Made by a program: the position numbers and the translations under genes
Assembly: GCA_016931055.1 (NCBI GenBank)
Contig: JAFGFL010000091.1
Coordinates: 42,108-106,107 of the forward strand
Direction of reading: 5' to 3'
Length of the DNA stretch: 64,000 nt
From: Candidatus Omnitrophota bacterium
GTDB taxonomy: Bacteria; Omnitrophota; Gorgyraeia; Zapsychrales; Zapsychraceae
Part shown: piece by piece, positions 30,525 to 46,904 of the stretch
Position numbering within the stretch: the stretch's first letter is position 1
Layout of the letters: every line of letters begins with the position of its first letter
The notes under the pieces: model-generated
Seen by the model: the letters and a program-made list of their open reading frames with translations, nothing else
The model's database searches: none
What the model was told of the DNA's origin: nothing

Positions 30525-31552
30525 TCAATTCAAGCCAAACATTATTCTTTGATCGTATTGTTGACCAGATTTCTGAAATCGGGCTGGATTTTCATGTTAA
30601 TAACATCTTTCAGCATGCCGAGAAGAATTCGGCAGATGTTAAACGGTCCATCAAACAGCTGCCCGCGCTTAAAGGAAATAAAGCGCGCACAGGCATCGTT
30701 ATCAGCGCCGGGCCGAGTCTCCGCAAAAAGAATTCGATCCAAAGAATATTTGACTCCGATTATCAAGGGTCGATTATCGCTATTGATGCTGCTTACATTG
30801 CCTGTCTGAAGGCGGGCCTTATTCCGGATTATGTGGTGACGATGGATCCCAATCCAACCAGAATGGTCCGGTGGTTCGGTGATCATGATTTTGAAAAGAA
30901 TACGGGAAATGATGATTACTATACACGGCAAGACCTGGATGTGGATTTCCGCCGTAATAGTCAGGAACAGAACAGGCGGCATATTGAGCTTGTTAATCAG
31001 CATGGACCTCTCAGTAAGGCTATTATTGCGACATCGGCCCCCAGGAATGTTGTCACCAGGATAAAGGAGGCTCGCCTGGACATGTATTGGTGGAATCCGC
31101 TTATGGATGATCCTACTAGGCAGGGAAGCCTGACGCGCAGACTCTATGAGATGAACGGACTTCCGTGCATCAACACCGGGGGAAATGTGGGGACGACGGC
31201 CTGGATTTTTGCCAATTCGGTCCTGAAACTCCCGCGCGTCGCGATTGTCGGGATGGACCTTGGTTACTATATGGACACGCCGATTGAAATGACGCAGACG
31301 TATTATGAATTGATCCACCATTTGGGGGGACGGGAAAATATCAAGGGATGTTTCAAGGAATATGAATTTCCCCTTGACCAGCAGAAGTATTATACCGATC
31401 CGACTTATTTTTGGTACCGCAAGAATTTGCTGGAGATGCTGGAAAGAGCGCCAGGAAAGACAGTCAATTGCACTGAAGGAGGAACGTTATTCGGTCCGCA
31501 TATCGAATGCGTCCGTCTCGACCGGTTTTTGGAAGAATCTGCTCATGGCTAA
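30521..31552 (+). CDS. Maf-family / DUF115 (MptE-like fold) protein; putative nonulosonic-acid glycosyltransferase
   Basis: GIVISAGPSLRKK...IIAIDAAYIACLKAGLIPDYVVTMDPNP matches the conserved core of motility-associated-factor glycosyltransferases; 343 aa, shorter than Campylobacter Maf proteins. Confidence 0.5.
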   Translation: MINSSQTLFFDRIVDQISEIGLDFHVNNIFQHAEKNSADVKRSIKQLPALKGNKARTGIVISAGPSLRKKNSIQRIFDSDYQGSIIAIDAAYIACLKAGLIPDYVVTMDPNPTRMVRWFGDHDFEKNTGNDDYYTRQDLDVDFRRNSQEQNRRHIELVNQHGPLSKAIIATSAPRNVVTRIKEARLDMYWWNPLMDDPTRQGSLTRRLYEMNGLPCINTGGNVGTTAWIFANSVLKLPRVAIVGMDLGYYMDTPIEMTQTYYELIHHLGGRENIKGCFKEYEFPLDQQKYYTDPTYFWYRKNLLEMLERAPGKTVNCTEGGTLFGPHIECVRLDRFLEESAHG

Positions 31553-33143
31553 AATATTAATAATCAATCCGGTTATTCGCGAAGATGATGAACCCAAGCA
31601 CATCCCTTACGGGCTTGCTTTGTTAGCCAGTATCGCGATGGGACAAGGGCATCTTGTCCAGGTTTATGATGAGAACGCGTGGAGAAAAGGCGATGAGGTG
31701 ATCGCAAAAGTCTGTCAGGCTGATTGTTGGGACGCGATCGCCACCGGTGGATTAACGACGACTTACCGGTCGATTAAAAAGATATTGAACATATGCAAAG
31801 CAAATGCGCCGGAGGCCTTTGTGATCGCGGGTGGGGGGTTCTTCACGAGCATGCCTCATGAAATGATGCGATGGATCCCGGAAATCGATTTGGGGGTGAT
31901 CGGAGAAGCTTTTGTCACCTGGCCGGAGGTTTTAGGAAAAATCGACTCGAAGGATTTTGATTTTTCCCGTACGTTGGGAGTGTGTTATCGGGAGGGTAAT
32001 GAAACAGTACTAACGGGAGTCCGTCCCAATATCAAGGACTTGGACAGGCTGCCGTATCCCGCGTGGGATTTGTTTCCATTGGATATTTATTTCAGAAATT
32101 CCGCATTGTCTTTAAGCGAGGTGGCTTTCCGTTCCAAGAGACGCATGGACATTATGGGAAGTTTAGGGTGCGGCATGGTTTGCAAGTTTTGCTGGCATTT
32201 GGGGACGACGGGCGACATGATCGTTGACGAAAATGATGAAGGGAAAAAGGATGTGCGTTTTACTTACGGGCGTAATATCCGTTATTTTAGCCCCCGCTAT
32301 ATCGTGGAAATGGTGAAAACCCTGGTGCGTAAATATGGGGTTGATTTTGTTTATTTTATCGATGAGAATTTTATGACGATGGATATGGCGAGCGGACGGA
32401 CTTGGTTGAAGGAACTTTGTGAATGTTGGATCAAAGAAGGGTTACAGCCTATGTCGAGGCGCCAGGGATTGCCGGATGAAGAAAATGAGGGAGGGGTGTT
32501 TTGGTCCGGGACGAGCCATGCGGGCCTCGCGTACAGGGATATCCTGGATTTAATGTATCGGGCGGGTTGCGCTTCTTTGGTTTACGGGACCGAGTCGTTC
32601 GATCCGGAAATCCTTAAGAACCTCGGAAAAGGGGTCAATCAGCGACAGAATATCGATGCGCTTAAGACATGCATGGATTCAGGAATTGTTCCCATTCCGA
32701 ATATTATGATCGGTTTCCCTGAGGAAACATTTAAGAGTATCCGCACGACGATTGAATGGATGATTAAGTTAGGCATCCATAGCAAGCCCCATTTTGCCAC
32801 TCCCTATCCAGGATCGGAGTGGTACTACACCTATAAAGACAGTATTATCGAGCAATATAACGGTGATCTGGAGGCTTTTATTAAAGAACTTGGTGATGCG
32901 ATGAAGCTGACGGCCGTCATATCACATAATTTTTCTCCGTTGCAACTTCTTGGTTTGCAGCAAATTGTCATGCAGCGTGACCTGCGGTTGCTGGACCTGG
33001 CGGAGAAGCACTGGGGAGAGGCAGGTACTTTGACCAAGACAATCGCGGAACCCAGGAATTCATTTAACATCATCAAAAGAAAAATCCAGGCTCCTATAGA
33101 GGGGCAAAAAGAAAGAAATAACCCAAATCATGTTAATCGCTGA
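31545..33143 (+). CDS. cobalamin(B12)-binding-domain radical SAM enzyme (class B) #1
   Basis: N-terminal B12-binding fold KILIINPV...IPYGLALLASIAMGQGHLVQVYDEN; radical SAM cluster CGMVCKFC (CxxxCxxC). True ATG at 31545 (ATGGCTAA overlap with the upstream stop); the track ORF from 31362 is an artefactual extension overlapping the Maf-like gene. Confidence 0.75.
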   Translation: MAKILIINPVIREDDEPKHIPYGLALLASIAMGQGHLVQVYDENAWRKGDEVIAKVCQADCWDAIATGGLTTTYRSIKKILNICKANAPEAFVIAGGGFFTSMPHEMMRWIPEIDLGVIGEAFVTWPEVLGKIDSKDFDFSRTLGVCYREGNETVLTGVRPNIKDLDRLPYPAWDLFPLDIYFRNSALSLSEVAFRSKRRMDIMGSLGCGMVCKFCWHLGTTGDMIVDENDEGKKDVRFTYGRNIRYFSPRYIVEMVKTLVRKYGVDFVYFIDENFMTMDMASGRTWLKELCECWIKEGLQPMSRRQGLPDEENEGGVFWSGTSHAGLAYRDILDLMYRAGCASLVYGTESFDPEILKNLGKGVNQRQNIDALKTCMDSGIVPIPNIMIGFPEETFKSIRTTIEWMIKLGIHSKPHFATPYPGSEWYYTYKDSIIEQYNGDLEAFIKELGDAMKLTAVISHNFSPLQLLGLQQIVMQRDLRLLDLAEKHWGEAGTLTKTIAEPRNSFNIIKRKIQAPIEGQKERNNPNHVNR

Positions 33144-34950
33144 GCAATCTGACCAAGATCAACAACAGCATCCGTCAATCAACAAAGCAGTGAAAACCCT
33201 GTTTATTACCTTGCCCCAAAGAGATACGCCCGGGACATATCCGCCTTATGGCGCGTTAACGGTCATGAGCTATCTGAAGCGAGCGGGTTTTTCTAATGTC
33301 ACTCTTTACAATATCGATCTTATGCGGCCGACGATGAAGGAGGCTATAAATTATATCGCCGATTTTAATCCGGAAGTTTTATGTATTAGCGCCCCTGTTT
33401 CAACAGCTTACGGGAATTGCAAACAGGTGACTCTTGAGATCAAGAAGTGGTTGCCGCAAACGAAAATTGTTCTGGGAGGGAATTTGGCGGCGAGTGCGGA
33501 GATTATTCTCAGAAAGACGGGGGTGGATATCTGTGTTTTAGGTGAAGGGGAGATTGCCTGCGCTCAGCTTCTTGAAAAATTGTCACAACATTGTCCGATC
33601 AACGAGTTGAAGGCCATTAAAGGGTTGGGATTTCTTGATGAGAAAGGCGTGTTTATCAACACGGGCTACGCACAGCAGCTCCTGATGGATCAGGTCTATG
33701 ATATTGATTGGGATGTGTGGGATGACTTTTCTTTAAAGAAGTGTTTCCGTCAATTAAAGGAAATAGATCCCAAGTCTACTTACTACAAATATTACACGGG
33801 GATCGGCGGCCAGATCAGCAGTGACAAACGGGAAACCAGGATAGCTATCCTTCCTTGCTCAAAGGGGTGCGTCGCGCGCTGTACGTTTTGTCATCGGTGG
33901 CAAAAAGGCATTCGTTTTATCCCTCCAGAGATCATGATCCAGAGGATTAAATTACTTATGGACAGTTATCAAGTCGGAGTTGTCAACATATCTGATGAGT
34001 GTTTTGGCGCTGATGTTAAATGGTTGCATGAATTCTGCGCTTTGATCAAACCCTTGGGGTTGATTTGGGTTGTGGGCGGGATGAGGGTCAAACAGATCAC
34101 CTCTGAGATCGTTTCAATGATGAAAGACGCCGGTTGCCGTTCCATTGTTTACGGAATGGAGACCGGCAGCAAAAGGATGATTGAGGTAATGGAAAAACGG
34201 GCATCTATTGAAGATAACGAACGGGCTTTTCGGTTGACCCTGGAGGCAGGTTTGCAGACAATCCCCCAATTGATCATCGGCATGCCCGGTGAAAATCCGG
34301 AGACGATCAAGGAATCCGCCGATTTTATTTCTAGGAATATGATTTTGGATAAACACCAAAATCCTCGTGAAGTCAGCATTAACTATGCTCAGGCTTTGCC
34401 TGGGACCCCTCTTTATGAATTCGCCCGGCAGAAGGGGTTGATCGGGAAAGGTTTGGATGAGGAAGAGCGGTATCTTTTGCATATTTCTGACCGGAATGCG
34501 TGTGATGATGAAACGACGCTCAATTTTACCGATTATCCATATCTGACGCTGGTTTCCTGGAGGAACATTATTCTGGCCACGATGAAGTATCGATATGCGA
34601 AAGCGTTCGGCATTTCCCATTATAACAAGGTTATGTTTCCTGATGGCCGGCCCGGTCTCTGGTGTTTGCTTAAGAGCCGGAATTTCGGTCTGCTTCTCGA
34701 CCGTTTTCCCCGGTTGACTTTCAGGTTAAGACATTGGATGGAGTTCTTCAAATTTATTGATATTTGGAAGAAACGAGGGCTGAAGATCGCGGGTGGTTTT
34801 CTGGTTGAATTTTTTGTTGTTCATTTAAGGCGGTGCCGGAAAAAACATTCGGATTTCGAATATAAATCATTACGGAAGATCATCGGACAAGACGCCTCTT
34901 ATCCTTGCGAGGAAAGCGATCCGATGGCTTCCCTGCGAAAAGGCAGGTAG
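33130..34950 (+). CDS. cobalamin(B12)-binding-domain radical SAM enzyme (class B) #2
   Basis: B12-fold N-terminus (LFITLPQ..YPPYGALTVMSYLKRAGF..); CVARCTFC (CxxxCxxC); 606 aa; overlaps the upstream gene by 14 bp. Confidence 0.75.
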   Translation: MLIAEQSDQDQQQHPSINKAVKTLFITLPQRDTPGTYPPYGALTVMSYLKRAGFSNVTLYNIDLMRPTMKEAINYIADFNPEVLCISAPVSTAYGNCKQVTLEIKKWLPQTKIVLGGNLAASAEIILRKTGVDICVLGEGEIACAQLLEKLSQHCPINELKAIKGLGFLDEKGVFINTGYAQQLLMDQVYDIDWDVWDDFSLKKCFRQLKEIDPKSTYYKYYTGIGGQISSDKRETRIAILPCSKGCVARCTFCHRWQKGIRFIPPEIMIQRIKLLMDSYQVGVVNISDECFGADVKWLHEFCALIKPLGLIWVVGGMRVKQITSEIVSMMKDAGCRSIVYGMETGSKRMIEVMEKRASIEDNERAFRLTLEAGLQTIPQLIIGMPGENPETIKESADFISRNMILDKHQNPREVSINYAQALPGTPLYEFARQKGLIGKGLDEEERYLLHISDRNACDDETTLNFTDYPYLTLVSWRNIILATMKYRYAKAFGISHYNKVMFPDGRPGLWCLLKSRNFGLLLDRFPRLTFRLRHWMEFFKFIDIWKKRGLKIAGGFLVEFFVVHLRRCRKKHSDFEYKSLRKIIGQDASYPCEESDPMASLRKGR

Positions 34951-34959
34951 AAAGCGGTT

Positions 34960-35682
34960 ATGTTCAAGTCAAAGAAGATTTTGTCGTTTATCGGGGCACG
35001 GGCGGGATCAAAAGGCCTCAAGAACAAGAATATTATTGATTTAGCGGGAAAGCCGCTTGTCGGCTGGACCATCGACGCTTCTCTCGGGTCAAAATATATT
35101 GACCGGACTATAGTTTCAACGGATGGGGAGGAAATTGCCCGTTTCGCAAAAGCATCAGGCGCCGATGTTCCTTTTTTACGTCCTAAAGAATTGGCGGATG
35201 ATGAATCATTGCTTGATGGGGCGATTCAACATGGTGTTCAATGGCTGAGAGAACATGAACAAACGGTTTACGATTATCTTCTTCTTTTGCAGCCGACATC
35301 TCCTTTGAGGACGTCAGCCCATATCGATGCGGCGATAGAATATTTTTTTGAGCATGTGCGGTCTGACCGGGACATGTTGATATCGGTGACTCCTGCGCCG
35401 ATGAAAACGGGCTGGCTTATGCATCAAAATGCTGCTGGTTATGTCCAGTTCAGCCTGGATTTCACCCGGGGTAAACATCGCAGGCAGGAAATGCCTCAGA
35501 TGTATTTTCCGAATGGTTTCATCTATTTTGGCCCTGTGGGGATTATGGAGCGCATTGGCTCGGTTACGGAGATGATGATTCCGTATGTTACAAGTAAGGA
35601 TATATCGGTGGATGTTGATTCACTGGATGACTTGAAGGAAGCAGAGGCATTGATCCAAGGAAGAAGGAGAGCGAATCAGTGA
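34960..35682 (+). CDS. CMP-nonulosonate synthetase (acylneuraminate cytidylyltransferase NeuA/LegF/PseF family)
   Basis: ILSFIGARAGSKGLKNKN (IPARxGSKGIPxKN-type motif), LQPTSPLR. Confidence 0.8.
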   Translation: MFKSKKILSFIGARAGSKGLKNKNIIDLAGKPLVGWTIDASLGSKYIDRTIVSTDGEEIARFAKASGADVPFLRPKELADDESLLDGAIQHGVQWLREHEQTVYDYLLLLQPTSPLRTSAHIDAAIEYFFEHVRSDRDMLISVTPAPMKTGWLMHQNAAGYVQFSLDFTRGKHRRQEMPQMYFPNGFIYFGPVGIMERIGSVTEMMIPYVTSKDISVDVDSLDDLKEAEALIQGRRRANQ

Positions 35683-37568
35683 AAAGAGAAAACATTCTGC
35701 TTGTAGAGACTGGTTCGATGCCGTTCTGGAGAACTTTTGGATATGATGATGTTTATGCTCTTTACGGCAACTCCACCAAAGGCAAGAAACTTCCCTGCGA
35801 TTTCATGAAAATGGAAGAAGGGCTTTTATCTAATTATAAAGCCGGTCAAATCATTGATTGGGTTTATGGACTTTTCGTTGATACACCTGAGAACCAATTC
35901 TTGGCTGAAATCATGGCGGATGAACAGGGCGGCCGGATTCTTAAAAAAGCGCTGTTGTGGGAATTGGGAAGAATTTGTCATTCGATGATTTTAGCGGAGA
36001 AATTCAGGAAAGATTATGGGTTTAATCAAGTCATCGATTTCATCCCGCGGCCTTTTTTCTATGCGCTTTTTTGTTTAATTCAAAAAAAAGAAGGCGTGCT
36101 TCCGGAGGGCATCCGTATTCCTCAATGGTATCTTCGGAAAATGAAGAGACGTGAAACCATGAAGAGTTGGATCTACGCCGTGGGTTTAGCGCTTTATCCG
36201 GTGTTAATCGGTGTCACGATGTCAGGGAAGCCGCGGACGAGAAAAGAATATTCATACGCGGTCCATATGTGGGACAGCTGGATCAGTACTTACGGGCCCA
36301 AAAGCGAATATCGCATGCAGTTTCTTGAAGGTTCCCGAAGTGTCAGCAAGGACAACGCCCTTTATTTCATTGATCAAAAGGCAGGCAAAGAGAATATTCG
36401 ACAAATTCAAACGAGTGGTTATGAATGCTGTTATTTCAAAAACATGGTCAGATCATTCAACGGTAGGACGTACTGGAAAGATATTTATCCTCAGGTAAGA
36501 AAACATATAAAGGCTCTGTTATCCTCTGTGGGACAGAATGGTTTATTTGCTGAGACATGTTTCAAGGCGGTCGTTTCATATATCCATTGGAAAATATTTT
36601 TCCATTTTTACGGAATAAAAGTGTTTCTTTATGTCCAGGACCCCTGCGATATTGCGGGGACCTTGCTCCAAAAGCGGCATAAGGCGCGAAACGTCTTTAT
36701 TTATTACTCGACGCAATACGATTGTGTTGAACGGGAAAACATGAACACTTTTACGGAAACGTACTACGGGCATATGATGGCGACGGCCATGATTTCAAGC
36801 CGCATGTCCAACGATTATTTTAGGAGAAACAACGAGCTGATTGGAGATTACAGGGAATGCGGGCTGATCTGGTCTGACATTGTGTTTGCGATGAAGAATG
36901 ATCTTCAATGGCAAGCCAGGGTAAAAAAAGAGATCGGATTGCCTTCCGGGAGAATTGTCCTAGGGGTTTTCACTCCGGGGATTGGACGCGCCGGTTGTCT
37001 GACGGAAGACGAAGGGTTCAGAATGATTGATGACATTTATCGTCTGATCGAATCGAATGAACAGTATTGCGTGGTTCTCAGGTATCGGCAGGTTGGCCTG
37101 TGGACCGAAAATGGCGCTTTGCGAAAGAAATTGGAACAACTGATTGACCATGAACGGGTTTTTGATGCGCATCGATTGGCGCCGAAATATCAGGCATATC
37201 AACTGATGGGTTGTTGTGATCTGGTGATAGGGGGGTTTGCCTCCAGCGTGCCGATGGAATCCGTCGCTGGTGGGATAAGGACTGTATGTTATGTGCCGGA
37301 ACGGTTAAAAAAGAATGTTTTTGTAATCAATTCGTTCCCGAAGTTTTGCCCGAAGGATTTCAAACAATTGAATGAGTATGTGCACTTTTGGCTTGATGAA
37401 TGTGATGACAGGGCATTTGCTGATTTCCAGGATGCTTATGTGAAGCCTCATGTTGACAGTTATTGTGATGGGCAAGCGACGAAAAGGCTGGGCGCGTTGC
37501 TTGCGGAAATTGAAAAAGAGGCCAGGGGAAGTGTTTTGCCGATGGAGATGGAAACTGTTTCCGTGTGA
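35679..37568 (+). CDS. large uncharacterised protein; candidate novel glycosyltransferase
   Basis: 629 aa with no recognised motif; C-terminal GRIVLGVFTPG...VLRYRQ...CDLVIGGFASSVPMESVAGGIRTV is arranged like a GT-B C-domain; 4-bp overlap with the CMP-synthetase gene. Confidence 0.3.
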   Translation: MKRENILLVETGSMPFWRTFGYDDVYALYGNSTKGKKLPCDFMKMEEGLLSNYKAGQIIDWVYGLFVDTPENQFLAEIMADEQGGRILKKALLWELGRICHSMILAEKFRKDYGFNQVIDFIPRPFFYALFCLIQKKEGVLPEGIRIPQWYLRKMKRRETMKSWIYAVGLALYPVLIGVTMSGKPRTRKEYSYAVHMWDSWISTYGPKSEYRMQFLEGSRSVSKDNALYFIDQKAGKENIRQIQTSGYECCYFKNMVRSFNGRTYWKDIYPQVRKHIKALLSSVGQNGLFAETCFKAVVSYIHWKIFFHFYGIKVFLYVQDPCDIAGTLLQKRHKARNVFIYYSTQYDCVERENMNTFTETYYGHMMATAMISSRMSNDYFRRNNELIGDYRECGLIWSDIVFAMKNDLQWQARVKKEIGLPSGRIVLGVFTPGIGRAGCLTEDEGFRMIDDIYRLIESNEQYCVVLRYRQVGLWTENGALRKKLEQLIDHERVFDAHRLAPKYQAYQLMGCCDLVIGGFASSVPMESVAGGIRTVCYVPERLKKNVFVINSFPKFCPKDFKQLNEYVHFWLDECDDRAFADFQDAYVKPHVDSYCDGQATKRLGALLAEIEKEARGSVLPMEMETVSV

Positions 37569-37618
37569 AATGAGCGATGCTAACAAGAAAAACAGCCCTT
37601 AGGGGAGAATTGAATCAT

Positions 37619-38278: not shown

Positions 38279-38284
38279 CGACTG

Positions 38285-39294: not shown

Positions 39295-40697
39295 ATTTCT
39301 GGGATTTATCACATTCGGGAAAGAGCATTGTTGTCAATAACAGTGAAACCCGGAAGAACTATAGTTATTTGGAATTCCAAGATCGGGTGGATGCTTTCAA
39401 GGCGGAAATGGCGGCACAAAACACCAAAGGGAAAACGTTGGGATTCATCTTTTGCAGGAATTCGCCTGCCGCTTTGGCTGGATATCTGGCGGCTTTGCAG
39501 GGAAAACAAGCCGTTTGCCTGTTAAGCGTTCAATTAGCGGATTTTCTGAGGGATGAATTGATCCGGATTTACCAGCCTGATTGGATATGGGCTCCGTCGG
39601 AAATGGGGGCTTTACCAAATAATTATGATGGAAAGAGGGAATGGGAGGGGTATAGATTGTCTTGTATCTCGCGGGAATCTAAGGGGACGGAAATTCATCC
39701 GGATCTAGCTGTTCTTCTTTCGACATCCGGAACGACCGGAACTCCCAAAATGGTGCGTTTATCCTACCGGAATCTTCAGGCAAACGCCGAATCCATCGCG
39801 GAATATTTGAGGCTGACGTCCAATGAATGCCCGGTGACGACCTTGCCCATGCATTATTCCTACGGACTGTCTGTTGTGAACAGTCATTTACAGGTGGGGG
39901 CGACCTTATTGCTGAATAACCATGACATGATGACAAGGTCGTTCTGGAATTTATTCAAGGAAGAGAACCCTACCTCTTTCGCCGGAGTGCCTTATACCTT
40001 TCAAATGCTTCATCGATTGAAGTTTGAACAAATGCAGCTTCCGTCGTTAAGGACAATAACCCAAGCAGGAGGGCATCTGGATGTTCAATATCAGGAATAT
40101 TTTCAGAAAGCGTGCGGCCGGATGAATGTCAGGTTCTTTGTGATGTACGGCCAGACAGAGGCGACCGCGCGGATCAGTTATATTCCTGTCGAGAAACTTT
40201 CTGATTGTTTGGGTTCTATCGGGATTTCGATACCCGACGGGCGGATGGAAGCAGACCCGGAAACGCAGGAATTAATATACCATGGACCAAACGTCATGAT
40301 GGGATACGCCGAAAGCCGCAAAGACCTGAACAAAGGGGATGAATTAAACGGTCGGCTAAGAACGGGGGACATTGTCAGGCAGGATGAAAGAGGTCATTTC
40401 TATATTCAAGGGCGGTTGAAACGGTTTATCAAACCATTTGGATTGCGCGTGAACTTGGATGACCTGGAGTCGATGATCAAGAAACGATTCCAGAAAGCTT
40501 GTTATTGCACAGGGGATGATTCTCATTTGCTCATTGCCGTTCCGCATGAGAATTTAACCCAGGAAGTCAAAAACCTGATGGTGGATACGTACGGAATGAA
40601 ATTGTCCACATTGAGAGTTTCCACTCTGACGGATATTCCCCGTCTGGAAACGGGTAAAGTCAATTATGCGGCACTGAAGGACGCTCTGCTTAAATGA
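39291..40697 (+). CDS. AMP-dependent synthetase/ligase (acyl-ACP/CoA ligase, adenylate-forming)
   Basis: LLSTSGTTGTPKMV (AMP-binding P-loop), YGQTEA, GD.V..DE.G.F...GR C-terminal motif. Confidence 0.8.
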   Translation: MNFWDLSHSGKSIVVNNSETRKNYSYLEFQDRVDAFKAEMAAQNTKGKTLGFIFCRNSPAALAGYLAALQGKQAVCLLSVQLADFLRDELIRIYQPDWIWAPSEMGALPNNYDGKREWEGYRLSCISRESKGTEIHPDLAVLLSTSGTTGTPKMVRLSYRNLQANAESIAEYLRLTSNECPVTTLPMHYSYGLSVVNSHLQVGATLLLNNHDMMTRSFWNLFKEENPTSFAGVPYTFQMLHRLKFEQMQLPSLRTITQAGGHLDVQYQEYFQKACGRMNVRFFVMYGQTEATARISYIPVEKLSDCLGSIGISIPDGRMEADPETQELIYHGPNVMMGYAESRKDLNKGDELNGRLRTGDIVRQDERGHFYIQGRLKRFIKPFGLRVNLDDLESMIKKRFQKACYCTGDDSHLLIAVPHENLTQEVKNLMVDTYGMKLSTLRVSTLTDIPRLETGKVNYAALKDALLK

Positions 40698-41779
40698 ATC
40701 TGGAACGCTTTTTTCAAGAGGAACCATTCGCTTGGGGTGCTGATGAGAAAAACGGCATCTTATCGGACGCGCTGTGGAAATTAACGGAAAAACACAGGAA
40801 GGCCTGTGAGATGTACCGGCGGATCCTGGAAGCGCTGCCGAACGGCACATTCAATTCTAAACGGATCGATCAGGTGCCGACGCTTCCGATCGGGCTTTTT
40901 AAACGGTATGACTTAAAAAGTGTTTCTCCTAAAGCTGTTGTCCGGGTCCTGACATCGAGCGGAACGACTTCGCAGACAGTGTCCCGTATTTTTCTGGACA
41001 AAGAAACATCTGTTCTTCAGACCAAAGCGTTGACGTGTATTATGCGGTCATTTATCGGACCCAAGCGGTTGCCGATGATCTTGGTGGACAGTCAAAATGT
41101 CCTGGAGAGGAAGGATTCCATGAACGCCCGCGGGGCCGGCCTGGTTGGTTTGAGCCTGTTTGGCCGGGATCACTTTTACATGCTGGACGAATCCATGCGT
41201 GTCCGTTGGGAAGAACTGGGAGCTTTCCTTAAGGAACATGCTGGTGAGAAAATCCTTATTTTTGGATTTACATCGATGATTTGGCAATATTTTCTGGAAG
41301 AAGCAAGGGCGGGAAAACGTGATATCTCTGTGCGAAATGGCCTATTGGTCCATGGCGGCGGTTGGAAGAAATTACAGTCACTGGGGATATCAAACGATGA
41401 ATTTAAGAAAGCGATCAGAAACCAGTTCCAGATTGAGCAGATTCACAATTTTTACGGGATGGCGGAACAGGTGGGTTCCATATTCATGGAATGTGAACGC
41501 GGCTATCTCCACGTTCCGAATTGTTCCGATATAATCATTCGGGATGGGCGTTCTCTGGAAGCGCTGAGGAACCGGAAAAAAGGGATCATTCAGGTGTTGA
41601 GCGTTTTGCCCCAAAGCTATCCGGGGCACAGTTTGCTGACGGAGGATGAAGGGATGATTGAGGGAGAAGATGATTGTCGTTGCGGACGCAAGGGAAAGTA
41701 TTTCCAGGTTCTTGGCCGTTTACCTCAAGTCGAATTACGCGGATGCAGTGATGTTTACGCTTATGGAGAAAGTCACTAA
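40694..41779 (+). CDS. LuxE-like acyl-protein synthetase family protein
   Basis: About 360 aa; VLTSSGTTSQTVSRIF resembles the LuxE SSGTTG acyl-adenylate motif; sits next to the ligase and a LuxC-like gene. Confidence 0.5.
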   Translation: MNLERFFQEEPFAWGADEKNGILSDALWKLTEKHRKACEMYRRILEALPNGTFNSKRIDQVPTLPIGLFKRYDLKSVSPKAVVRVLTSSGTTSQTVSRIFLDKETSVLQTKALTCIMRSFIGPKRLPMILVDSQNVLERKDSMNARGAGLVGLSLFGRDHFYMLDESMRVRWEELGAFLKEHAGEKILIFGFTSMIWQYFLEEARAGKRDISVRNGLLVHGGGWKKLQSLGISNDEFKKAIRNQFQIEQIHNFYGMAEQVGSIFMECERGYLHVPNCSDIIIRDGRSLEALRNRKKGIIQVLSVLPQSYPGHSLLTEDEGMIEGEDDCRCGRKGKYFQVLGRLPQVELRGCSDVYAYGESH

Positions 41780-43005
41780 TGGAAGTATTATCGCCTGCAA
41801 ATGTCAAAGCGATGGATTACCAGGAGATTTTGGAAAGCATTCTAAAACGGGAGCCGTTTAAACCGTTTGATCCCGTCCTGATGGCGTTTGCCAAAGATGT
41901 TTCGGATGCCGTATTGAGCGACCGTCATTTTCGCGGTTACCCTGACATGATGGCGGCGGCTCACTGGATGCGGGCAAGTCATATAAAGGAGGTTCGCGAG
42001 AGATATGAATCCAGGCGGCAGGGACGGATTTGGCTGCCGAGAGGGACGGTCGTGCATTTTGCTCCGGCGAATGTGGATACTGTTTTTATTTACTCATGGA
42101 TTATTTCTTTTCTTCTGGGCAACAAAAACATCATCCGGCTTTCTCAGGGGAGAGGTCAGCAAGTGAACGCGTTTCTTCAGGCGGTCAATGGATTGCTCGA
42201 GAATAAGCGATACCAGCCGGTGAGCGACCGGAATATGTTTATCTGTTATGGGCATGAGGAGACGGTAACGGGAAGCCTTTGCGCTCAGTGCGATGTGCGT
42301 GTTATTTGGGGGGGGGATGAAACGGTTCGTTTGATCCGGCAGGTACCGCTGCCGCCTTACGCGACGGAAATCGTTTTTGCGGACAAGTTTTCTTTGGCGG
42401 CCATAAAAAGTAAGGCTGTCACAATATCGACGGAGAATGATTTGAACGATCTCGCTGGAAAATTCTATAATGATGCCTTCTGGTTCAATCAGAACGCCTG
42501 TTCATCACCGAGAATGGTTGTATGGATCGGTTCCAAGAGTGATAATGAGAGAGCGAAGAAGCTGTTTTGGGACGCGCTAAAGAAAGTAATTGAAAGAAAT
42601 GGCCTCAAGGAGGATGTGGCGGTCGGGTTGAACAGGATGTTGACGGGATACAGTTTTGCCGCTGAAGGATTAGCGGATCGATTGTCCTCTCAGGGGACGG
42701 AGAGGCCGTACCGTTTGCATATTAATGATTTAAGCGACCGGGTTAGGACGCAGCATGCTGGCGGCGGTGTATTCCTTGAAATGGAACTGTCCTCATTGTC
42801 CCTGCTAACCAGGCATGTGACTCGCAAGGATCAAACGTTATCTGTTTATGGATTTGACAAAGATGAATTGTCCGAATTCTCATCAGGTTTATTAAACGGA
42901 GGCGTGAACCGGGTCGTTCAGGTTGGGCAAGCGCTTGAGTTTGATTTGATTTGGGACGGATTTGATTTGTTTACTTATCTTTCGCGTGAAATCACGGTGA
43001 AATAA
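41779..43005 (+). CDS. LuxC-like acyl-CoA/acyl-protein reductase family protein
   Basis: About 408 aa, overall aldehyde-dehydrogenase-like; HFAPANVDTVFIYSWIISFLLGNKNIIRLSQ, VIWGGDETV; genomic context with LuxE-like/ACP/ligase as in the V. cholerae O1 rfbKLMNO genes. Confidence 0.45.
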   Translation: MEVLSPANVKAMDYQEILESILKREPFKPFDPVLMAFAKDVSDAVLSDRHFRGYPDMMAAAHWMRASHIKEVRERYESRRQGRIWLPRGTVVHFAPANVDTVFIYSWIISFLLGNKNIIRLSQGRGQQVNAFLQAVNGLLENKRYQPVSDRNMFICYGHEETVTGSLCAQCDVRVIWGGDETVRLIRQVPLPPYATEIVFADKFSLAAIKSKAVTISTENDLNDLAGKFYNDAFWFNQNACSSPRMVVWIGSKSDNERAKKLFWDALKKVIERNGLKEDVAVGLNRMLTGYSFAAEGLADRLSSQGTERPYRLHINDLSDRVRTQHAGGGVFLEMELSSLSLLTRHVTRKDQTLSVYGFDKDELSEFSSGLLNGGVNRVVQVGQALEFDLIWDGFDLFTYLSREITVK

Positions 43006-43017
43006 TGCAAGGGACCT

Positions 43018-44037
43018 ATGCCTAATAAGAAAAATACTCATGTTATGATCATCGCCGAGGCGGGTGTTAACCACAATGGAAACTTGGAGACGGCGTTGCG
43101 GCTGGTTGATGAGGCGGCATGTGCGGGTGCCGATGCCGTTAAATTCCAGACTTTTATTGCCGAAGCGGGTGTCAGCAAGTTCGCGCCGAAAGCCGAATAT
43201 CAGAAGAGAACCATGGGGAATGAGGAATCGCAACTGGAAATGGTCAAGAAGCTTGAACTGGATGAAAACGCGCACAGGAAATTGATGCAACGCTGCAAAC
43301 AGAAAGATATCCTTTTTCTTTCGACACCTTTTGACAGGGGAAGTATTGAATTGCTTGATCAGCTTGGACTGGAGATGATCAAAATTCCTTCCGGTGAGAT
43401 CACGAATCTTCCATATCTGCGAAAGGTCGGGGCCTTGAAGAAAAAGCTCATTCTTTCGACCGGCATGTCAACCCTCAAGGAAATCCGGGTGGCGCTCCGG
43501 ATACTGGAATCCTCAGGGACGCCAAGGAGCCGGATAACAGTTCTTCATTGCAATACCGAGTATCCAACTCCCTACGAGGACGTGAATCTTTTGGCCATGT
43601 TGACGATCAGAGACAAGTTGGGTGTTAAGGTCGGTTATTCCGATCATACTCTAGGCGTTGAAGTTCCTATTGCGGCGGCCGCTTTGGGCGCGTCGGTTAT
43701 TGAAAAACATTTTACTCTTGACCGGACGATGCCCGGACCCGATCATATAGCTTCCATTGAACCAGATGAACTGAGGCAAATGGTTTTGGCCGTGAGAAAT
43801 ATTGAGAAAGTCCTGGGGGATGGTACTAAAAAGGCTTCGCCTTCTGAACAAAAGAATATTCCTATCGCTCGTAAAAGTATTGTGGCTGATAAAGACATTG
43901 CCAAAGGGGAAATCTATTCCGAGAGTAATATTACAATCAAAAGGCCAGGAACGGGGATCACTCCTATGCAATGGGACCATGTGTTGGGCATTCCATCCAA
44001 AAGAAACTTTTGTAAAGATGAATTGATTGAATTATAG
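43018..44037 (+). CDS. nonulosonic acid synthase, NeuB/PseI/LegI family (copy 2)
   Basis: VMIIAEAGVNHNG, AVKFQTF, LSTPFD, C-terminal SAF domain (SIVADKDIAKGEIYSESNITIKRPGTG). Confidence 0.8.
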   Translation: MPNKKNTHVMIIAEAGVNHNGNLETALRLVDEAACAGADAVKFQTFIAEAGVSKFAPKAEYQKRTMGNEESQLEMVKKLELDENAHRKLMQRCKQKDILFLSTPFDRGSIELLDQLGLEMIKIPSGEITNLPYLRKVGALKKKLILSTGMSTLKEIRVALRILESSGTPRSRITVLHCNTEYPTPYEDVNLLAMLTIRDKLGVKVGYSDHTLGVEVPIAAAALGASVIEKHFTLDRTMPGPDHIASIEPDELRQMVLAVRNIEKVLGDGTKKASPSEQKNIPIARKSIVADKDIAKGEIYSESNITIKRPGTGITPMQWDHVLGIPSKRNFCKDELIEL

Positions 44038-44103
44038 ATCAAACAATGAAATCAATGAGAACAGGATTAATGACTAATGTATGTCAATGGGAAAGGGCTT
44101 TAA

Positions 44104-45741
44104 ATGAGTAAACCAAATATGCTATTCATTTCACCACCGGATATACCTATCGAAGAAATTAGGAATACGAATACACCGACGGCACAGTGGGCAACGAACA
44201 TTTCCATGAAGATGGGGATCTTATCGCTTGCGGCCTATACTTTAAAGCATGTGGATGCACAAATCCGGATTATTGATCTTGGTCTCGAGATTTCAAATAA
44301 TGAGGATAGTTTTAAAACGATGATATGGGAGGAGTTTTTACGTCTGACCATGTCGAAAGTGTTTGATTCAGAACTTCCTGAGATTGTCGGGATATCGGCT
44401 CTTTATAACTCCAATGCAGGATATATGGAACTTATTGCTTCAACCGCAAAAGTTTTATGGCCGGGAGTCTTGGTTATTGCGGGGGGTATTTTACCGACCA
44501 ATTATTATCGTTATGTTCTTGATGAGGCCCCGAGTATCGATGCCATCGTAATCAAAGAAGGAGAGAAGCCTCTTGTTGGGCTTCTTACAGCCGGTGATAA
44601 GAAAGAATACCTTGCTGGGGCAAAGGGATGGATGACAAGAGAAAGGCTTCATGAAGAGCCAACCATGGACTTAATCAATGATCTCGATGAAATCCCGTTC
44701 TTTAGATATGACCTGATTGATTTCGATGCTTATCAGAAATTGAATCGTTACCATGGTGAGCGCTCGTCTGATTCAATTGCTGTATCGGTGATGACAACAC
44801 GGGGATGTCCCTATGGATGTTGTTTCTGCGCATCACATACGGTCCATGGAAAGAAAATAAGACGACATAGTTCTGAACGTGTTTTGAATGACATCCATAA
44901 ACTAAAGGAATTATACAAAGTGAATATCATTTTGATTGAAGACGATCTTTTTTTTATTCAGAAAGAGTATGCGCTTGAGGTGTTAAAGGGCATTTCAAAA
45001 ATGAATTTGACCATTGAATTTCCAAACGGGATTTCCATCCAACATATGGATGAAGAAATGGTGGATGCTTTAAAAACAGCCGGCCTTAAAATGGCAACAC
45101 TAGCTGTGGAATCAGGGAGTGAGCGTGTGCTCAATGAAATCATTCATAAACCATATAAGAAACTATCAAGAGTGAAATATGTTGTTTCTCTTTTGCGAGA
45201 ACGGGGAATATATGTTCGGGCTGGTTTTATAATTGGTTTTCCGGGAGAAACGATGGAAGAGATTCTTGAAACTAAGCGGTTCATGAAAGAAACAGGCTTT
45301 AATTGGGTGCAGATATTTATTGCTACACCGTTAGTCGGATCTGAACTTTATGATATCTGTAAGAAGAACGAGCTGCTGATATCTGACAGTCTCGAGAAAT
45401 TCCATTTTGGGCAATCTAACATAAGATTATCACATTCAACTTCCGAAGAATTTGTTAACCTTCGATATTTGATGAATTTGGAAGTCAATTTTGTTGATAA
45501 TTATGATTTAAGGAATGGTAGCCCGCAAGTTGCACTGATTGGATTTCTCGATGTAATCAATCGGGTCCCCAATCACGCGTTTGCTTACTATTTTGCCTCT
45601 CAATGTTATGAAAAGATGGGAAAGGAAGATCTATGCCGTGAGTATCAAGCAAAGTATAGAGAGATTGTTCTTGCTTCAAGCGAATGGATGGGATACACAA
45701 AACACTTTAATCTTCCAATTGGGGAAATGGCTGAATTATGA
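44104..45741 (+). CDS. cobalamin(B12)-binding-domain radical SAM enzyme (class B) #3
   Basis: B12-fold N-terminus (MLFISPPD...GILSLAAYTLKH); CPYGCCFC (CxxxCxxC); 545 aa. Confidence 0.75.
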   Translation: MSKPNMLFISPPDIPIEEIRNTNTPTAQWATNISMKMGILSLAAYTLKHVDAQIRIIDLGLEISNNEDSFKTMIWEEFLRLTMSKVFDSELPEIVGISALYNSNAGYMELIASTAKVLWPGVLVIAGGILPTNYYRYVLDEAPSIDAIVIKEGEKPLVGLLTAGDKKEYLAGAKGWMTRERLHEEPTMDLINDLDEIPFFRYDLIDFDAYQKLNRYHGERSSDSIAVSVMTTRGCPYGCCFCASHTVHGKKIRRHSSERVLNDIHKLKELYKVNIILIEDDLFFIQKEYALEVLKGISKMNLTIEFPNGISIQHMDEEMVDALKTAGLKMATLAVESGSERVLNEIIHKPYKKLSRVKYVVSLLRERGIYVRAGFIIGFPGETMEEILETKRFMKETGFNWVQIFIATPLVGSELYDICKKNELLISDSLEKFHFGQSNIRLSHSTSEEFVNLRYLMNLEVNFVDNYDLRNGSPQVALIGFLDVINRVPNHAFAYYFASQCYEKMGKEDLCREYQAKYREIVLASSEWMGYTKHFNLPIGEMAEL

Positions 45742-46901: not shown

Positions 46902-46904
46902 AAT

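What the first reader, a model, noticed from the sequence alone, without database searches (positions are those of the whole stretch)
31545..45741. Three cobalamin-binding radical SAM enzymes embedded in a nonulosonic-acid pathway
Two tandem class B radical SAM genes (31545-33143, 33130-34950) and a third (44104-45741) each carry an N-terminal B12-binding fold and a CxxxCxxC cluster (CGMVCKFC, CVARCTFC, CPYGCCFC). They are interleaved with the CMP-nonulosonate synthetase, NeuB, NeuC, aminotransferase and Maf-like genes. Class B radical SAM enzymes typically C-, P- or N-methylate unactivated centres (GenK, Fom3, TsrM) or carry out other radical rearrangements. To my knowledge none has been tied to legionaminic/pseudaminic-type sugars. 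This points to C-methylated or otherwise radical-modified nonulosonic acids (or modified N-acyl groups) of a kind not described.
Basis: partly seen in the sequence, partly recalled or inferred. Interest (0 to 1): 0.8.

Follow-up and report, generated by a model that had tools for sequence, protein, structure and literature searches.

The report
B12-type radical enzymes in sialic-acid-like sugar cluster
Three cobalamin-type radical SAM enzymes really do sit inside a bacterial sialic-acid-like (legionaminic-type) sugar gene cluster, and one belongs to an apparently undescribed three-gene cassette found next to such sugar genes in many bacterial phyla, pointing to an unknown radical modification of these surface sugars.

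Summary
ORFs 31545-33143 (A), 33130-34950 (B) and 44104-45741 (C) each carry Pfam B12-binding and Radical_SAM domains above threshold, one CxxxCxxC motif and no SPASM domain. They are 20-24% identical to each other. They lie among two NeuB, two NeuC, a CMP-sugar synthetase, an aminotransferase and acetamidino genes in an Omnitrophota MAG.

The new result concerns A. It belongs to a strongly conserved family (48-74% identity across phyla). In 78 of 78 testable genomes its gene directly follows a 340-aa MptE-like gene, a paralogue of the Maf catalytic core. A CMP-sugar synthetase is the commonest neighbour, and NeuB lies within 10 kb in 36 of 47 long loci. Carriers include cultured Thalassotalea, Colwellia, Methylobacter, Leptospira and Paramagnetospirillum.

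B and C are accessory. They recur in nonulosonate or deoxysugar clusters elsewhere, and C looks like a low-GC insertion.

The chemistry is unresolved. C-methylation of the CMP-sugar is the leading guess, but the sugar diol-dehydratase AprD4 is as close a structural relative as the methylases. I found no paper linking radical SAM enzymes functionally to these sugars. Unexplained C10 ulosonic acids in Magnetospirillum are a possible product.

The parts
30351..30524 (+). Conserved 57-aa protein, first gene of the cassette. Motifs LKGNF ... LGGSMVY.ER ... W.
   Evidence: ORF with an AGGAGG ribosome-binding site; its stop overlaps the MptE-like ATG. A homologous small ORF sits directly upstream of the MptE-like gene in 62 of 70 loci; G40, G41 and S42 are invariant in 62/62. 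53 stand-alone representative clusters of 41-86 aa in the 1.84-billion-protein library. No Pfam family.
30521..31552 (+). Short MptE-like protein (343 aa), a paralogue of the Maf catalytic core. Obligate neighbour of rSAM-A.
   Evidence: PF01973, 60.4 bits. Directly upstream of rSAM-A in 78/78 loci, median gap 7.5 nt. Profile against PDB: archaeal MptE 8SD5 E=2e-9, Maf 5MU5 E=0.004. hhalign to full-length Maf core, 95.7%.
31545..33143 (+). rSAM-A: class B-architecture radical SAM enzyme, core of the conserved cassette.
   Evidence: Pfam. Family 62-74% identical across phyla among the top 120 database hits. AF2 pLDDT 88.9; Foldseek top matches TsrM, OxsB, AprD4, MgmA, TokK, CysS. Only one Cys triad (C209/C213/C216).
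33130..34950 (+). rSAM-B: second class B-architecture radical SAM enzyme, accessory.
   Evidence: Pfam. Co-occurs with A only in close Omnitrophota relatives (L005; P0123). Homologues at 51-52% identity lie in CTP_transf_3 / NeuB / LIC12162 clusters of Scalindua and others. No sugar context at 44% identity.
34960..35682 (+). Divergent CMP-nonulosonate synthetase (CTP_transf_3).
   Evidence: Pfam. NCBIfam PseF 127 bits, below cut-off. This family is the commonest gene flanking the cassette: found in 55 loci, and directly downstream of rSAM-A in 19-23 depending on the counting method.
35679..37568 (+). 629-aa protein of unknown function, recurrent partner of rSAM-B. Possible glycan transferase or polymerase.
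   Evidence: No Pfam or NCBIfam hit here. The counterpart in a relative carries a weak precomputed PF27878 PFTS_polysacc hit. Homologous to the 624-aa protein next to the rSAM-B homologue in L167 (E=1e-55).
24407..27092 (+). WbuZ/HisF-HisH fusion plus WbuX amidotransferase (acetamidino formation).
   Evidence: NCBIfam WbuX 361 bits, above cut-off 203; WbuZ 267 bits and HisH 210 bits. WbuX is frequently next to the cassette elsewhere.
27097..30296 (+). NulO set 1: NeuB1, an SDR epimerase/dehydratase, and NeuC1.
   Evidence: Pfam. NeuB_NnaB 364 bits (below cut-off); NeuC_NnaA 380 bits (above cut-off).
37577..43005 (+). N-acyl tailoring block: NeuD/PglD-family acyltransferase, 88-aa ACP-like ORF (38285-38551), FabG-like ketoreductase, AMP-binding ligase, LuxE, LuxC.
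   Evidence: Pfam. NeuD_NnaD 175 bits, above cut-off. ACP-like ORF with a WDSI motif. The same AMP-binding/LuxE/LuxC/PglD block sits next to the rSAM-C homologue in L089/L090.
43018..44037 (+). NeuB2, a Neu/Leg-type nonulosonate synthase.
   Evidence: Pfam 325 bits. NeuB_NnaB 498 bits, above cut-off 400.
44104..45741 (+). rSAM-C: third class B-architecture radical SAM enzyme, a compositionally foreign insertion between NeuB2 and NeuC2.
   Evidence: Pfam. 100% identical to an NCBI Omnitrophica MAG protein. GC 0.395 and GC3 0.368, against about 0.46 and 0.50-0.54 for neighbours. Absent between NeuB and NeuC in a related contig. Adjacent to NeuB in L001, L089/L090, L092 and L169.
45738..50752 (+). 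NeuC2, DegT aminotransferase, a 395-aa unknown protein, and a CBS-domain SDR (LegB-like region).
   Evidence: Pfam. NeuC_NnaA 475 bits.

Best explanation
The three genes are working parts of Neu/Leg-type nonulosonic-acid (NulO) tailoring pathways. They are not bystanders.

The core unit is a translationally coupled cassette with three genes: a 57-aa protein, a short MptE-like protein, and rSAM-A. It is usually followed by a CMP-NulO synthetase.

My best guess at the mechanism, all of it inferred:
1. The MptE-like protein is a paralogue of the CMP-NulO-using Maf core. It holds the cytidylylated sugar, or the free sugar just before activation.
2. The small protein acts as an adaptor subunit.
3. 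rSAM-A uses the 5'-deoxyadenosyl radical and methylcobalamin to methylate an unactivated carbon. The target would be C9 or another backbone carbon, or the methyl of the N-acetyl or acetamidino group.
4. The product is a C-methylated, possibly chain-extended, CMP-legionaminic-type sugar.

rSAM-B travels with a 625-aa putative transferase. rSAM-C is a foreign insertion next to NeuB2 and an ACP/LuxE/LuxC N-acyl block. Both would add further radical modifications in the two parallel NulO pathways of this Omnitrophota cluster.

What is shown: domain architecture, fold, gene order and its conservation.
What is inferred: the substrate, cobalamin use, methyl transfer and the role of the small protein.

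The confidence given (0.4) is for the methylation mechanism. Confidence that all three act in NulO or glycan tailoring is about 0.85.
For: - Architecture: Pfam B12-binding plus Radical_SAM above cut-off, and no SPASM.
- Fold of A: matches cobalamin-dependent TsrM, OxsB, MgmA, TokK and CysS.
- Operon structure: overlapping stop and start codons from 30351 to 37568.
- MptE-like gene directly upstream of A in 78/78 loci.
- Small ORF present in 62/70 loci.
- In 47 loci of at least 15 kb: CMP synthetase in 42, NeuB in 36, NeuC in 31.
- Unbiased ORF clustering gives the same ranking.
- The cassette lies inside a flagellin glycosylation island in Thalassotalea and in an O-antigen-type cluster in Leptospira ryugenii, close to a ferredoxin gene.
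- B and C recur in NulO clusters of other phyla.
- Precedents from my own knowledge of the literature: GenK and GenD1 C-methylate sugar carbons, and Fom3 methylates a CMP-linked substrate.
- CMP-activated C10 ulosonic acids (+CH2 in the backbone) are reported in Magnetospirillum gryphiswaldense with no genes assigned (bioRxiv 10.64898/2026.04.20.719630; PMC8157484). The cassette occurs in the related Paramagnetospirillum caucaseum (L055).
Against: - There are no chemical data for any carrier of the cassette.
- None of the three reaches a curated class B family cut-off. The best results are 86-171 bits against cut-offs of 480-575.
- AprD4 is the top PDB sequence hit for A and C and the second for B. 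It scores about the same as the methylases in the fold search. It is a non-methylating sugar diol dehydratase.
- OxsB and BchE/HpnJ-type non-methylating class B enzymes are equally near.
- The invariant GGS of the small protein could mark it as a substrate rather than an adaptor.
- The C10 sugars could instead come from heptose plus PEP, or from a transketolase step. Such genes accompany the cassette here (3904-18473) and in L055.
- I could not check whether M. gryphiswaldense itself has the cassette.
Confidence: 0.4

Rival explanations
1. The enzymes are non-methylating radical enzymes acting on the NulO or its precursor. Options are an AprD4-like 1,2-diol dehydration/deoxygenation, an epimerisation of an unactivated stereocentre, or an OxsB/OxsA-like two-protein rearrangement of a nucleotide-linked sugar. 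In the last case the MptE-like protein would be the nucleotide-binding partner.
For: AprD4 (6FD2) is the best PDB sequence match for A (E=1.5e-9) and C (4.9e-15), and the second best for B (5.1e-10). AprD4 and OxsB score like TsrM in the fold search, with TM about 0.6. Curated methylase families are not reached. NulO stereoisomers and deoxy variants exist whose enzymology is incomplete (my own knowledge).
Against: Most characterised members with this architecture are methylases. The NCBIfam hits to AprD4 are weaker (33-75 bits) than those to BchE, HpnJ and the methylase families. The Pfam B12-binding domain scores above its cut-off in all three.
Confidence: 0.3
2. The 57-aa protein is the substrate or a carrier. 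One version: the MptE-like protein (Maf-core paralogue) glycosylates its invariant Ser42 with the NulO, and rSAM-A then modifies the tethered sugar. The other version: rSAM-A methylates the peptide itself, giving a RiPP-like glycopeptide.
For: G40, G41 and S42 are invariant in 62/62 sequences, between conserved flanks and a variable linker. The protein is always stand-alone and always first in the cassette. Maf proteins O-glycosylate Ser/Thr (literature; PMC9298399 abstract). The third-best NCBIfam hit of A is a RiPP C-methyltransferase family, at 81.6 bits. An ABC exporter is adjacent in 12 loci.
Against: No protease, RRE or PqqD domain was detected. Conservation at both ends is unlike RiPP precursors. 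The cassette is embedded in flagellin and O-antigen sugar clusters and is tied to the CMP synthetase, which fits sugar tailoring. The ABC exporter is of the kind that also flips lipid-linked glycans.
Confidence: 0.15
3. The target is not the sugar backbone but the N-acyl substituent. The enzymes would extend or branch an acetyl, acetamidino or ACP-derived acyl group by methylation, as TokK and CysS do on side chains. This applies especially to rSAM-C.
For: rSAM-C lies beside the ACP/FabG/AMP-binding/LuxE/LuxC/NeuD block here and in L089/L090. In L169 and L001 it follows a FemAB-like acyltransferase or a methyltransferase. WbuX acetamidino genes often flank the cassette.
Against: Many cassette loci have no special acyl genes (for example Thalassotalea). 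Distant rSAM-C relatives (35-40% identity) sit with NDP-hexose dehydratase, aminotransferase and NeuB-like genes but without acyl genes.
Confidence: 0.25
4. The co-location is fortuitous, and the rSAM genes serve unrelated pathways.
For: Some homologues at 44-54% identity have no sugar context: P0035 and P0178, and L170 has only GT2/PMT genes.
Against: Adjacency to the MptE-like gene in 78/78 loci, and NeuB or CMP synthetase within 10 kb in 36-42 of 47 long loci across more than ten phyla. Translational coupling in the window.
Confidence: 0.03

Closest known systems
GenK / GenD1 (class B radical SAM C-methyltransferases of gentamicin biosynthesis)
   Same: N-terminal B12-binding domain plus a radical SAM barrel with a single CxxxCxxC cluster. 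They act on unactivated carbons of amino sugars, and GenK extends a sugar carbon chain by one carbon. That is the chemistry proposed here.
   Different: No detectable specific sequence relationship; the window proteins reach no curated family. GenK acts on a pseudo-oligosaccharide, not a CMP-ulosonic acid, and needs no MptE-like or small partner. The comparison rests on my knowledge of the literature and was not tested here.
Fom3 (fosfomycin; class B C-methyltransferase acting on cytidylyl-2-hydroxyethylphosphonate)
   Same: A class B enzyme whose true substrate is CMP-linked and is made by an adjacent cytidylyltransferase. This parallels the tight rSAM-A / CMP-synthetase linkage.
   Different: The substrate is a phosphonate, not a sugar. 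No homologue of the MptE-like or small protein is involved. The related PhpK family scores only 58-92 bits here, against a cut-off of 600.
AprD4 (radical SAM 1,2-diol dehydratase of apramycin, PDB 6FD2)
   Same: Best or near-best solved relative by sequence, and an equal match by fold. It acts on an amino sugar and has a B12-like N-terminal domain.
   Different: It is not a methylase and, by my knowledge of the literature, is not cobalamin-dependent. NCBIfam AprD4 model scores are 33-75 bits against a cut-off of 500.
OxsB/OxsA (oxetanocin; cobalamin-dependent radical SAM enzyme working with a nucleotide-binding partner)
   Same: A two-protein system in which a class B enzyme rearranges a nucleotide-linked sugar. 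Fold match to A at E=1.9e-19.
   Different: The partner is an HD-domain phosphohydrolase, not an MptE-like protein. The chemistry is ring contraction of deoxyadenosine phosphates.
Maf (motility accessory factor) flagellin nonulosonic-acid glycosyltransferases
   Same: The cassette's 343-aa protein shares the MptE-like core and its motifs (GPSL, PD.VV..DP, G.D) with full-length Maf. Both occur in NulO clusters, sometimes side by side.
   Different: It lacks the Maf N- and C-terminal domains and TPR repeats. It has its own roughly 35-aa insertion with invariant Arg and Asp residues. By sequence it is closer to the archaeal pterin pyrophosphokinase MptE than to Maf 5MU5. It is always paired with a radical SAM enzyme.
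Known NulO tailoring enzymes (PtmH N-methyltransferase, PtmG/WbuX amidotransferases, O-methyl- and O-acetyltransferases)
   Same: They act late in the pathway, probably on CMP-sugars, and diversify Leg and Pse.
   Different: All use polar chemistry on N or O atoms. None is a radical SAM enzyme, and none can alkylate an unactivated carbon.

Membership tests
Radical SAM superfamily | CxxxCxxC motif ligating the [4Fe-4S] cluster, within a Radical_SAM (PF04055) core | tested here: met
   PF04055 at 51.5, 61.2 and 72.2 bits against cut-off 29.5. Motifs read directly. Cys triads invariant in A1 and A3.
Class B (cobalamin-binding-domain) radical SAM enzymes | N-terminal Rossmann-type B12-binding domain (PF02310) preceding the radical SAM core | tested here: met
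   PF02310 at 48.0, 60.6 and 45.2 bits against cut-off 32.1. The model of A superposes on TsrM, OxsB, TokK, CysS and MgmA over 430-480 columns.
Class B (cobalamin-binding-domain) radical SAM enzymes | Actual binding of cobalamin | not testable with these tools
   AprD4 shows that this architecture can exist without cobalamin use (my knowledge of the literature). No sequence motif settles the question. The DxHxxG His-on motif is absent from A on reading; by my knowledge class B enzymes usually lack it too.
Class B radical SAM methyltransferases | Transfer of a SAM-derived methyl group via methylcobalamin to the substrate | not testable with these tools
   Needs an enzyme assay or isotope labelling.
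Curated class B families (BchE, HpnJ, PhpK, Sden_1168, KedN5, HpnR, BzaD, MgmA/MJ_0865, AprD4, RiPP rSAM_ocin_1) | Score at or above the NCBIfam curated cut-off | tested here: not met
   Best scores are A 85.8 (BchE, cut-off 481), B 129.4 (BchE, cut-off 481) and C 171.1 (Sden_1168, cut-off 575).
   No PF13186 hit in any of the three. A has no further conserved Cys cluster.
Maf flagellin NulO glycosyltransferases (for ORF 30521-31552) | MptE-like (PF01973) catalytic core | tested here: met
   PF01973 at 60.4 bits against cut-off 34.6. 20/20 family members hit it. hhalign to the Maf core, 95.7%.
Maf flagellin NulO glycosyltransferases (for ORF 30521-31552) | Full-length architecture of about 600-850 aa with flanking N- and C-terminal domains | tested here: not met
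   343 aa. Only Maf residues 172-346 are matched. NCBIfam PseD domain model 44.8 bits against cut-off 670.
Neu/Leg-type nonulosonate pathway (context) | NeuB-type synthase plus hydrolysing NeuC-type 2-epimerase plus CMP synthetase | tested here: met
   NeuB2 498 bits against cut-off 400. NeuC1 and NeuC2 at 380 and 475 bits against cut-off 236. PseI scores are below cut-off. CTP_transf_3 present.

The most novel reading that the evidence does not exclude
The cassette (small protein, MptE-like protein, rSAM-A) would be the missing biosynthetic origin of the unexplained CMP-activated ten-carbon ulosonic acids seen in Magnetospirillum gryphiswaldense. It would extend the carbon chain of a CMP-legionaminic-type sugar by radical, cobalamin-dependent methylation of its terminal carbon. 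If so, C10 or C-methyl sialic-acid-like sugars decorate flagella and polysaccharides in more than ten bacterial phyla.

A still more exotic variant is not excluded: the sugar is tailored while O-linked to the invariant serine of the 57-aa protein, a protein-templated sugar modification.
Probability: 0.2. Interest if true: 0.85.

Novelty: new variant of a known kind. Interest (0 to 1): 0.66.

Why it matters
Nonulosonic acids (sialic, legionaminic and pseudaminic acids) cap bacterial flagella, S-layers, capsules and LPS. They control motility, phage recognition and immune evasion.

All known tailoring of these sugars happens on N or O atoms by polar chemistry. A conserved radical, probably cobalamin-dependent, tailoring system would add a new chemical dimension: C-alkylation, deoxygenation or rearrangement of the backbone.

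It would also give a gene-level handle on ulosonic acids of unexplained mass reported since 2020.

The cassette occurs in cultivable bacteria, so the question can be tested directly by gene knock-out plus CMP-sugar mass spectrometry. Candidates are Thalassotalea, Colwellia/Cognaticolwellia, Methylobacter tundripaludum SV96, Leptospira ryugenii and Paramagnetospirillum caucaseum.

The three-component make-up (small protein, Maf-core paralogue, class B rSAM) is also new for radical SAM enzymology.

Tried and rejected
- AF2 of the MptE-like protein. The single-sequence model was useless (pLDDT 29), so no fold search was run on it.
- Curated families. NCBIfam names none of the three rSAMs, the small protein or the 629-aa protein. 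Pfam finds nothing for the small protein.
- The 629-aa ORF against the TIGR04326-like 655-aa ORF, and against the Scalindua 623-aa and LIC12162 proteins: no pairwise similarity. Only the L167 624-aa protein matched.
- tblastn of rSAM-A against 72,556 plasmids: no hit.
- Rfam scan of the window, looking for example for a cobalamin riboswitch: nothing.
- Literature. 'Radical SAM' + 'flagellin glycosylation' + 'cobalamin': 0 papers. 'Radical SAM' + 'nonulosonic': 0 papers. 'DUF115' + 'radical SAM': 2 irrelevant papers. Radical SAM + Leg + Pse: only the Legionella LPS-locus paper.
- Legionella lead. In strains Lens and 130b, ORF 13-A (unknown function) plus ORF 13-c (radical SAM) might be this same pair.
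- M. gryphiswaldense. I could not check whether it carries the cassette.
- Fold and sequence comparison could not separate methylase from dehydratase or rearrangement chemistry.
- Rejected idea: the small protein as a LysW-like C-terminal amino-group carrier. Its C-terminus is not conserved beyond the W.DG motif.
- Rejected idea: the small protein as a standard ACP/PCP. It is too short, has a disordered-looking linker, and its LGGS motif lacks the D/H of the carrier-protein motif.

Full report
**Setting**

The 64-kb window is one uninterrupted array of about 60 co-directional ORFs on the + strand. GC is about 0.455 and GC skew on the coding strand is strongly positive. Pfam and NCBIfam scans of essentially all ORFs of at least 150 aa show only glycan-biosynthesis functions. 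rSAM-C is 100% identical to a protein annotated by NCBI in a 'Candidatus Omnitrophica bacterium' MAG, on a 119-kb contig. No flagellar genes, RNA families or mobile elements were seen.

**Check of the observation**

The three ORFs are real and carry the stated features.
- Pfam scores are given in the observation check; all pass their cut-offs, and there is no SPASM hit.
- The motifs CGMVCKFC, CVARCTFC and CPYGCCFC are present.
- The three proteins are only 20-24% identical to each other, so they represent three separate subfamilies rather than recent duplicates.
All homologues begin at this methionine.
NCBIfam places both synthases and both epimerases in the Neu/Leg type: NeuB_NnaB 364 and 498 bits, NeuC_NnaA 380 and 475 bits. 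They are not Pse type.
- An acetamidino-forming WbuX / WbuZ-HisH set lies just upstream.

- rSAM-A belongs to an unusually conserved family. The top 120 database hits are 62-74% identical, although they come from many phyla. A 28-sequence alignment has 72% mean column identity.
- A scan of one genome per GTDB species found 135 species encoding a relative. The best 80 are 48-74% identical.
  - MAG lineages include Omnitrophota, Planctomycetales, Leptospiraceae, Elusimicrobiota, Bdellovibrionota-like predators, Legionellales, Chromatiaceae, Rhodospirillales, Anaerolineales and Terriglobia.
  - Cultured carriers include Colwellia chukchiensis, Cognaticolwellia aestuarii, three Thalassotalea species, Methylobacter tundripaludum SV96, Ca. 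Uabimicrobium amorphum and Paramagnetospirillum caucaseum SO-1.
  - Leptospira ryugenii also carries it.
- In all 78 loci with upstream DNA, the homologue of window ORF 30521-31552 (MptE-like) lies directly upstream on the same strand. The median gap is 7.5 nt.
- In front of that gene there is nearly always a 55-70-aa ORF. In the window it is 30351-30524. It has a strong ribosome-binding site and an ATGA stop/start overlap.
- This small protein has a conserved N-terminal LKGNF, a variable charged linker and a conserved LGGS(M/I)..V..(R/K)....W segment. G40, G41 and S42 are invariant in 62 of 62 sequences.
- It is called as a stand-alone 41-86-aa protein in 53 representative clusters of the 1.84-billion-protein library. 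It belongs to no Pfam family.
- Unbiased clustering of all ORFs in the 80 loci ranks the co-occurring families as follows:

| Family | Loci |
|---|---|
| rSAM-A | 70 |
| MptE-like | 65 |
| CMP-NulO synthetase (typically directly downstream) | 55 |
| Small protein (blastp only) | 40 |
| NeuB | 34 |
| PtmE-like NTP-transferase | 33 |
| 4,6-dehydratase | 32 |
| NeuC | 31 |
| PglD/NeuD | 25 |
| DegT | 22 |
| WbuX | 18 |

- Among the 47 loci of at least 15 kb, 42 have a CMP synthetase and 36 a NeuB.
- No further universal partner exists.
- The unit is therefore small protein + MptE-like + rSAM-A, tightly linked to CMP activation of a legionaminic-type sugar.
- It works in different glycoconjugate settings.
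  - In Thalassotalea it lies in a compact flagellin glycosylation island. On one side are FleQ/FleSR. The island holds Maf, the cassette, a dehydratase, NeuC, a formyltransferase, PIG-L, NeuB, PtmE and a CMP synthetase. On the other side are FliT/FliS/FliD/FlaG and flagellin.
  - In Leptospira ryugenii it lies in an O-antigen-type cluster with a flippase, and a ferredoxin gene follows the CMP synthetase downstream of the rSAM.

**The MptE-like partner**

- It is not a full Maf. A profile of 20 members matches the archaeal pterin pyrophosphokinase MptE (8SD5, E=2e-9) better than Maf (5MU5, E=0.004), over the N-terminal nucleotide-binding part.
- Profile-profile comparison with full-length Maf proteins from the same loci gives 95.7% probability over the whole Maf core. 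The GPSL, PD.VV..DP and G.D motifs are shared.
- The short protein has its own roughly 35-aa insertion with invariant Arg and Asp residues.
- It is therefore a nucleotide- or CMP-sugar-binding enzyme or subunit. Whether it transfers, phosphorylates or merely presents the sugar is unknown.

**rSAM-B and rSAM-C are accessory**

rSAM-B:
- It accompanies A only in close Omnitrophota relatives (L005; the P0123 contig).
- Its homologues at 51-52% identity lie in other NulO-type clusters.
  - In Ca. Scalindua the cluster has a LegB-like dehydratase, DegT, PglD, NeuB, NeuC, a formyltransferase, PIG-L, PtmE, two CMP synthetases and another B12-rSAM.
  - Two further contigs have LIC12162-family proteins, an ABC exporter, NeuB and CTP_transf_3.
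- The 629-aa ORF after the window's CMP synthetase is homologous to the 624-aa protein beside the rSAM-B homologue in L167 (E=1e-55).
- At 44% identity the sugar context is lost.

rSAM-C:
- It is a compositional outlier: GC 0.395 and GC3 0.368, against about 0.46 and 0.50-0.54 for its neighbours.
- It is absent between NeuB and NeuC in a related contig.
- It is adjacent to NeuB in L001 (NeuB-C-NeuC), L169, L089/L090 (AMP-binding-LuxE-LuxC-PglD-C-NeuB-NeuC) and L092.
- More distant relatives (35-40% identity, many contigs) recur with NDP-hexose nucleotidyltransferase, 4,6-dehydratase, DegT and a divergent NeuB-like gene. The wider family is therefore also sugar-associated.
- A few homologues have no such context.

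**What chemistry?**

- The AF2 model of A is confident (pLDDT 88.9, pTM 0.88).
- Its best PDB matches all have TM about 0.55-0.63. They are the cobalamin-dependent TsrM, OxsB, MgmA, TokK and CysS, and equally AprD4.
- By sequence, AprD4 is the top solved relative of A and C and the second of B.
- No curated NCBIfam class B family is reached.
- The architecture is therefore class B. Neither cobalamin use nor methyl transfer is shown, and these tools cannot show them.
- Three precedents favour C-methylation of the CMP-activated sugar or its N-substituents; all rest on my own knowledge of the literature.
  - Most characterised class B enzymes are methylases.
  - GenK and GenD1 methylate sugar carbons.
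  - Fom3 needs a CMP-linked substrate, which parallels the cassette's link to the CMP synthetase.
- Non-methylating radical chemistry (diol dehydration, epimerisation, OxsB-like rearrangement with a nucleotide-binding partner) remains a strong rival.
- The invariant Ser of the small protein keeps a carrier or substrate role open.

**A possible product**

- Two papers report ulosonic acids with a ten-carbon backbone in Magnetospirillum gryphiswaldense. The marker ion is m/z 311.10 instead of 297.09, which corresponds to one extra CH2. The CMP-sugars are at m/z 679.198, 693.214 and 707.230. No genes were assigned (PMC8157484; bioRxiv 10.64898/2026.04.20.719630).
- The same preprint reports +14.01 Da CMP-NulOs in Ca. 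Kuenenia. Its cluster architecture (deacetylase and formyltransferase) resembles the Scalindua locus that carries the rSAM-B homologue.
- The cassette is present in Paramagnetospirillum caucaseum and in a magnetotactic Rhodospirillaceae genome (L055 and L071).
- This is a lead, not a test. I could not query the M. gryphiswaldense genome.
- A heptose/transketolase module accompanies the cassette both in the window (3904-18473) and in L055. It offers an alternative route to C10 sugars.

**Literature and novelty**

- Full-text searches found no paper that connects radical SAM enzymes functionally with nonulosonic, legionaminic or pseudaminic acids.
- The only mention is an uncharacterised radical SAM ORF (13-c), next to a conserved unknown ORF (13-A), in the LPS locus of some L. 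pneumophila strains (PMC3766260). That might be the same pair.
- Class B enzymes in sugar pathways are a known kind. New here are the attachment to NulO pathways, the three-gene make-up with a Maf-core paralogue and a small GGS protein, and the wide distribution. I rate it a new variant of a known kind.

**Verdict**

- Observation: confirmed.
- Interpretation: partly supported. The link to NulO tailoring is strongly supported, at about 0.85. Methylation is plausible but unproven, at about 0.4.

Noticed in passing
window 30351-30524 (+): A conserved 57-aa ORF with an invariant GGS motif, translationally coupled to the MptE-like gene. It belongs to no described family. It became part of the main finding.
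   Followed up: yes
window 38285-38551 (+): An 88-aa acyl-carrier-protein-like ORF (motif EWDSIAHM) between the NeuD/PglD acyltransferase and FabG. Together with AMP-binding, LuxE and LuxC it suggests an unusual ACP-built N-acyl group on the second nonulosonate. A relative's cluster has ACP/KASIII/KR/FkbH instead.
   Followed up: partly
window 44104-45741: rSAM-C is a compositional outlier (GC 0.395, GC3 0.368, against about 0.46 and 0.50-0.54 in flanking genes). It is preceded by a 66-nt AT-rich spacer. It looks like a recent horizontal insertion between NeuB2 and NeuC2.
   Followed up: partly
window 424-7243: A separate octulosonate-like module: HpcH/HpaI aldolase, methyltransferase, KdsB-like CMP-Kdo synthetase (303 bits, above cut-off), GFO oxidoreductase, SIS isomerase, 2-hydroxyacid dehydrogenase, SDR and a DHQ-synthase-like protein. 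The trio KdsB-like / 2-hydroxyacid DH / HpcH aldolase also flanks the cassette in several other loci (for example L018, L054, L073, L078 and L082).
   Followed up: no
window 9215-18473; L055: A heptose/chain-extension module: SDR, HldE-like kinase-nucleotidyltransferase, SDR, two DegT genes, a 220-aa unknown, an APH-type kinase and a split transketolase. Paramagnetospirillum caucaseum has the same module at 35-63% identity directly after the cassette. It could be an alternative route to higher-carbon sugars.
   Followed up: no
window 1-64000: All of the roughly 60 ORFs are on one strand, with strong positive GC skew (0.12-0.23) throughout. The whole 64 kb is a single glycan super-cluster with at least three CMP/NDP-sugar pathways, four glycosyltransferases and one ABC exporter.
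   Followed up: no
L003 (Ca. Scalindua), L167, L168, L169: NulO clusters of anammox and other uncultured bacteria often carry two or more different B12-binding radical SAM genes, next to roughly 590-aa LIC12162-family and roughly 620-aa PFTS_polysacc-like proteins. Radical SAM tailoring of these sugars may be common in anaerobes.
   Followed up: partly
L085 (Thalassotalea sp. 1_MG-2023) and L028, L031, L033, L034: Five Alteromonadales loci hold the cassette with a dehydratase, NeuC, NeuB, PtmE and a CMP synthetase. Maf, a formyltransferase and PIG-L were seen in several of them. None has a DegT aminotransferase or a PglD acetyltransferase. Either those steps are encoded elsewhere or the sugar is not a canonical 5,7-diamino Leg.
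   Followed up: no
window 28109-29122 / 28977-30296: The longest NeuC1 ORF overlaps the preceding SDR gene by 146 nt. The NeuC model aligns from residue 48, so the true start is probably the Met at about 29109 (MPKRKIAIF).
   Followed up: partly
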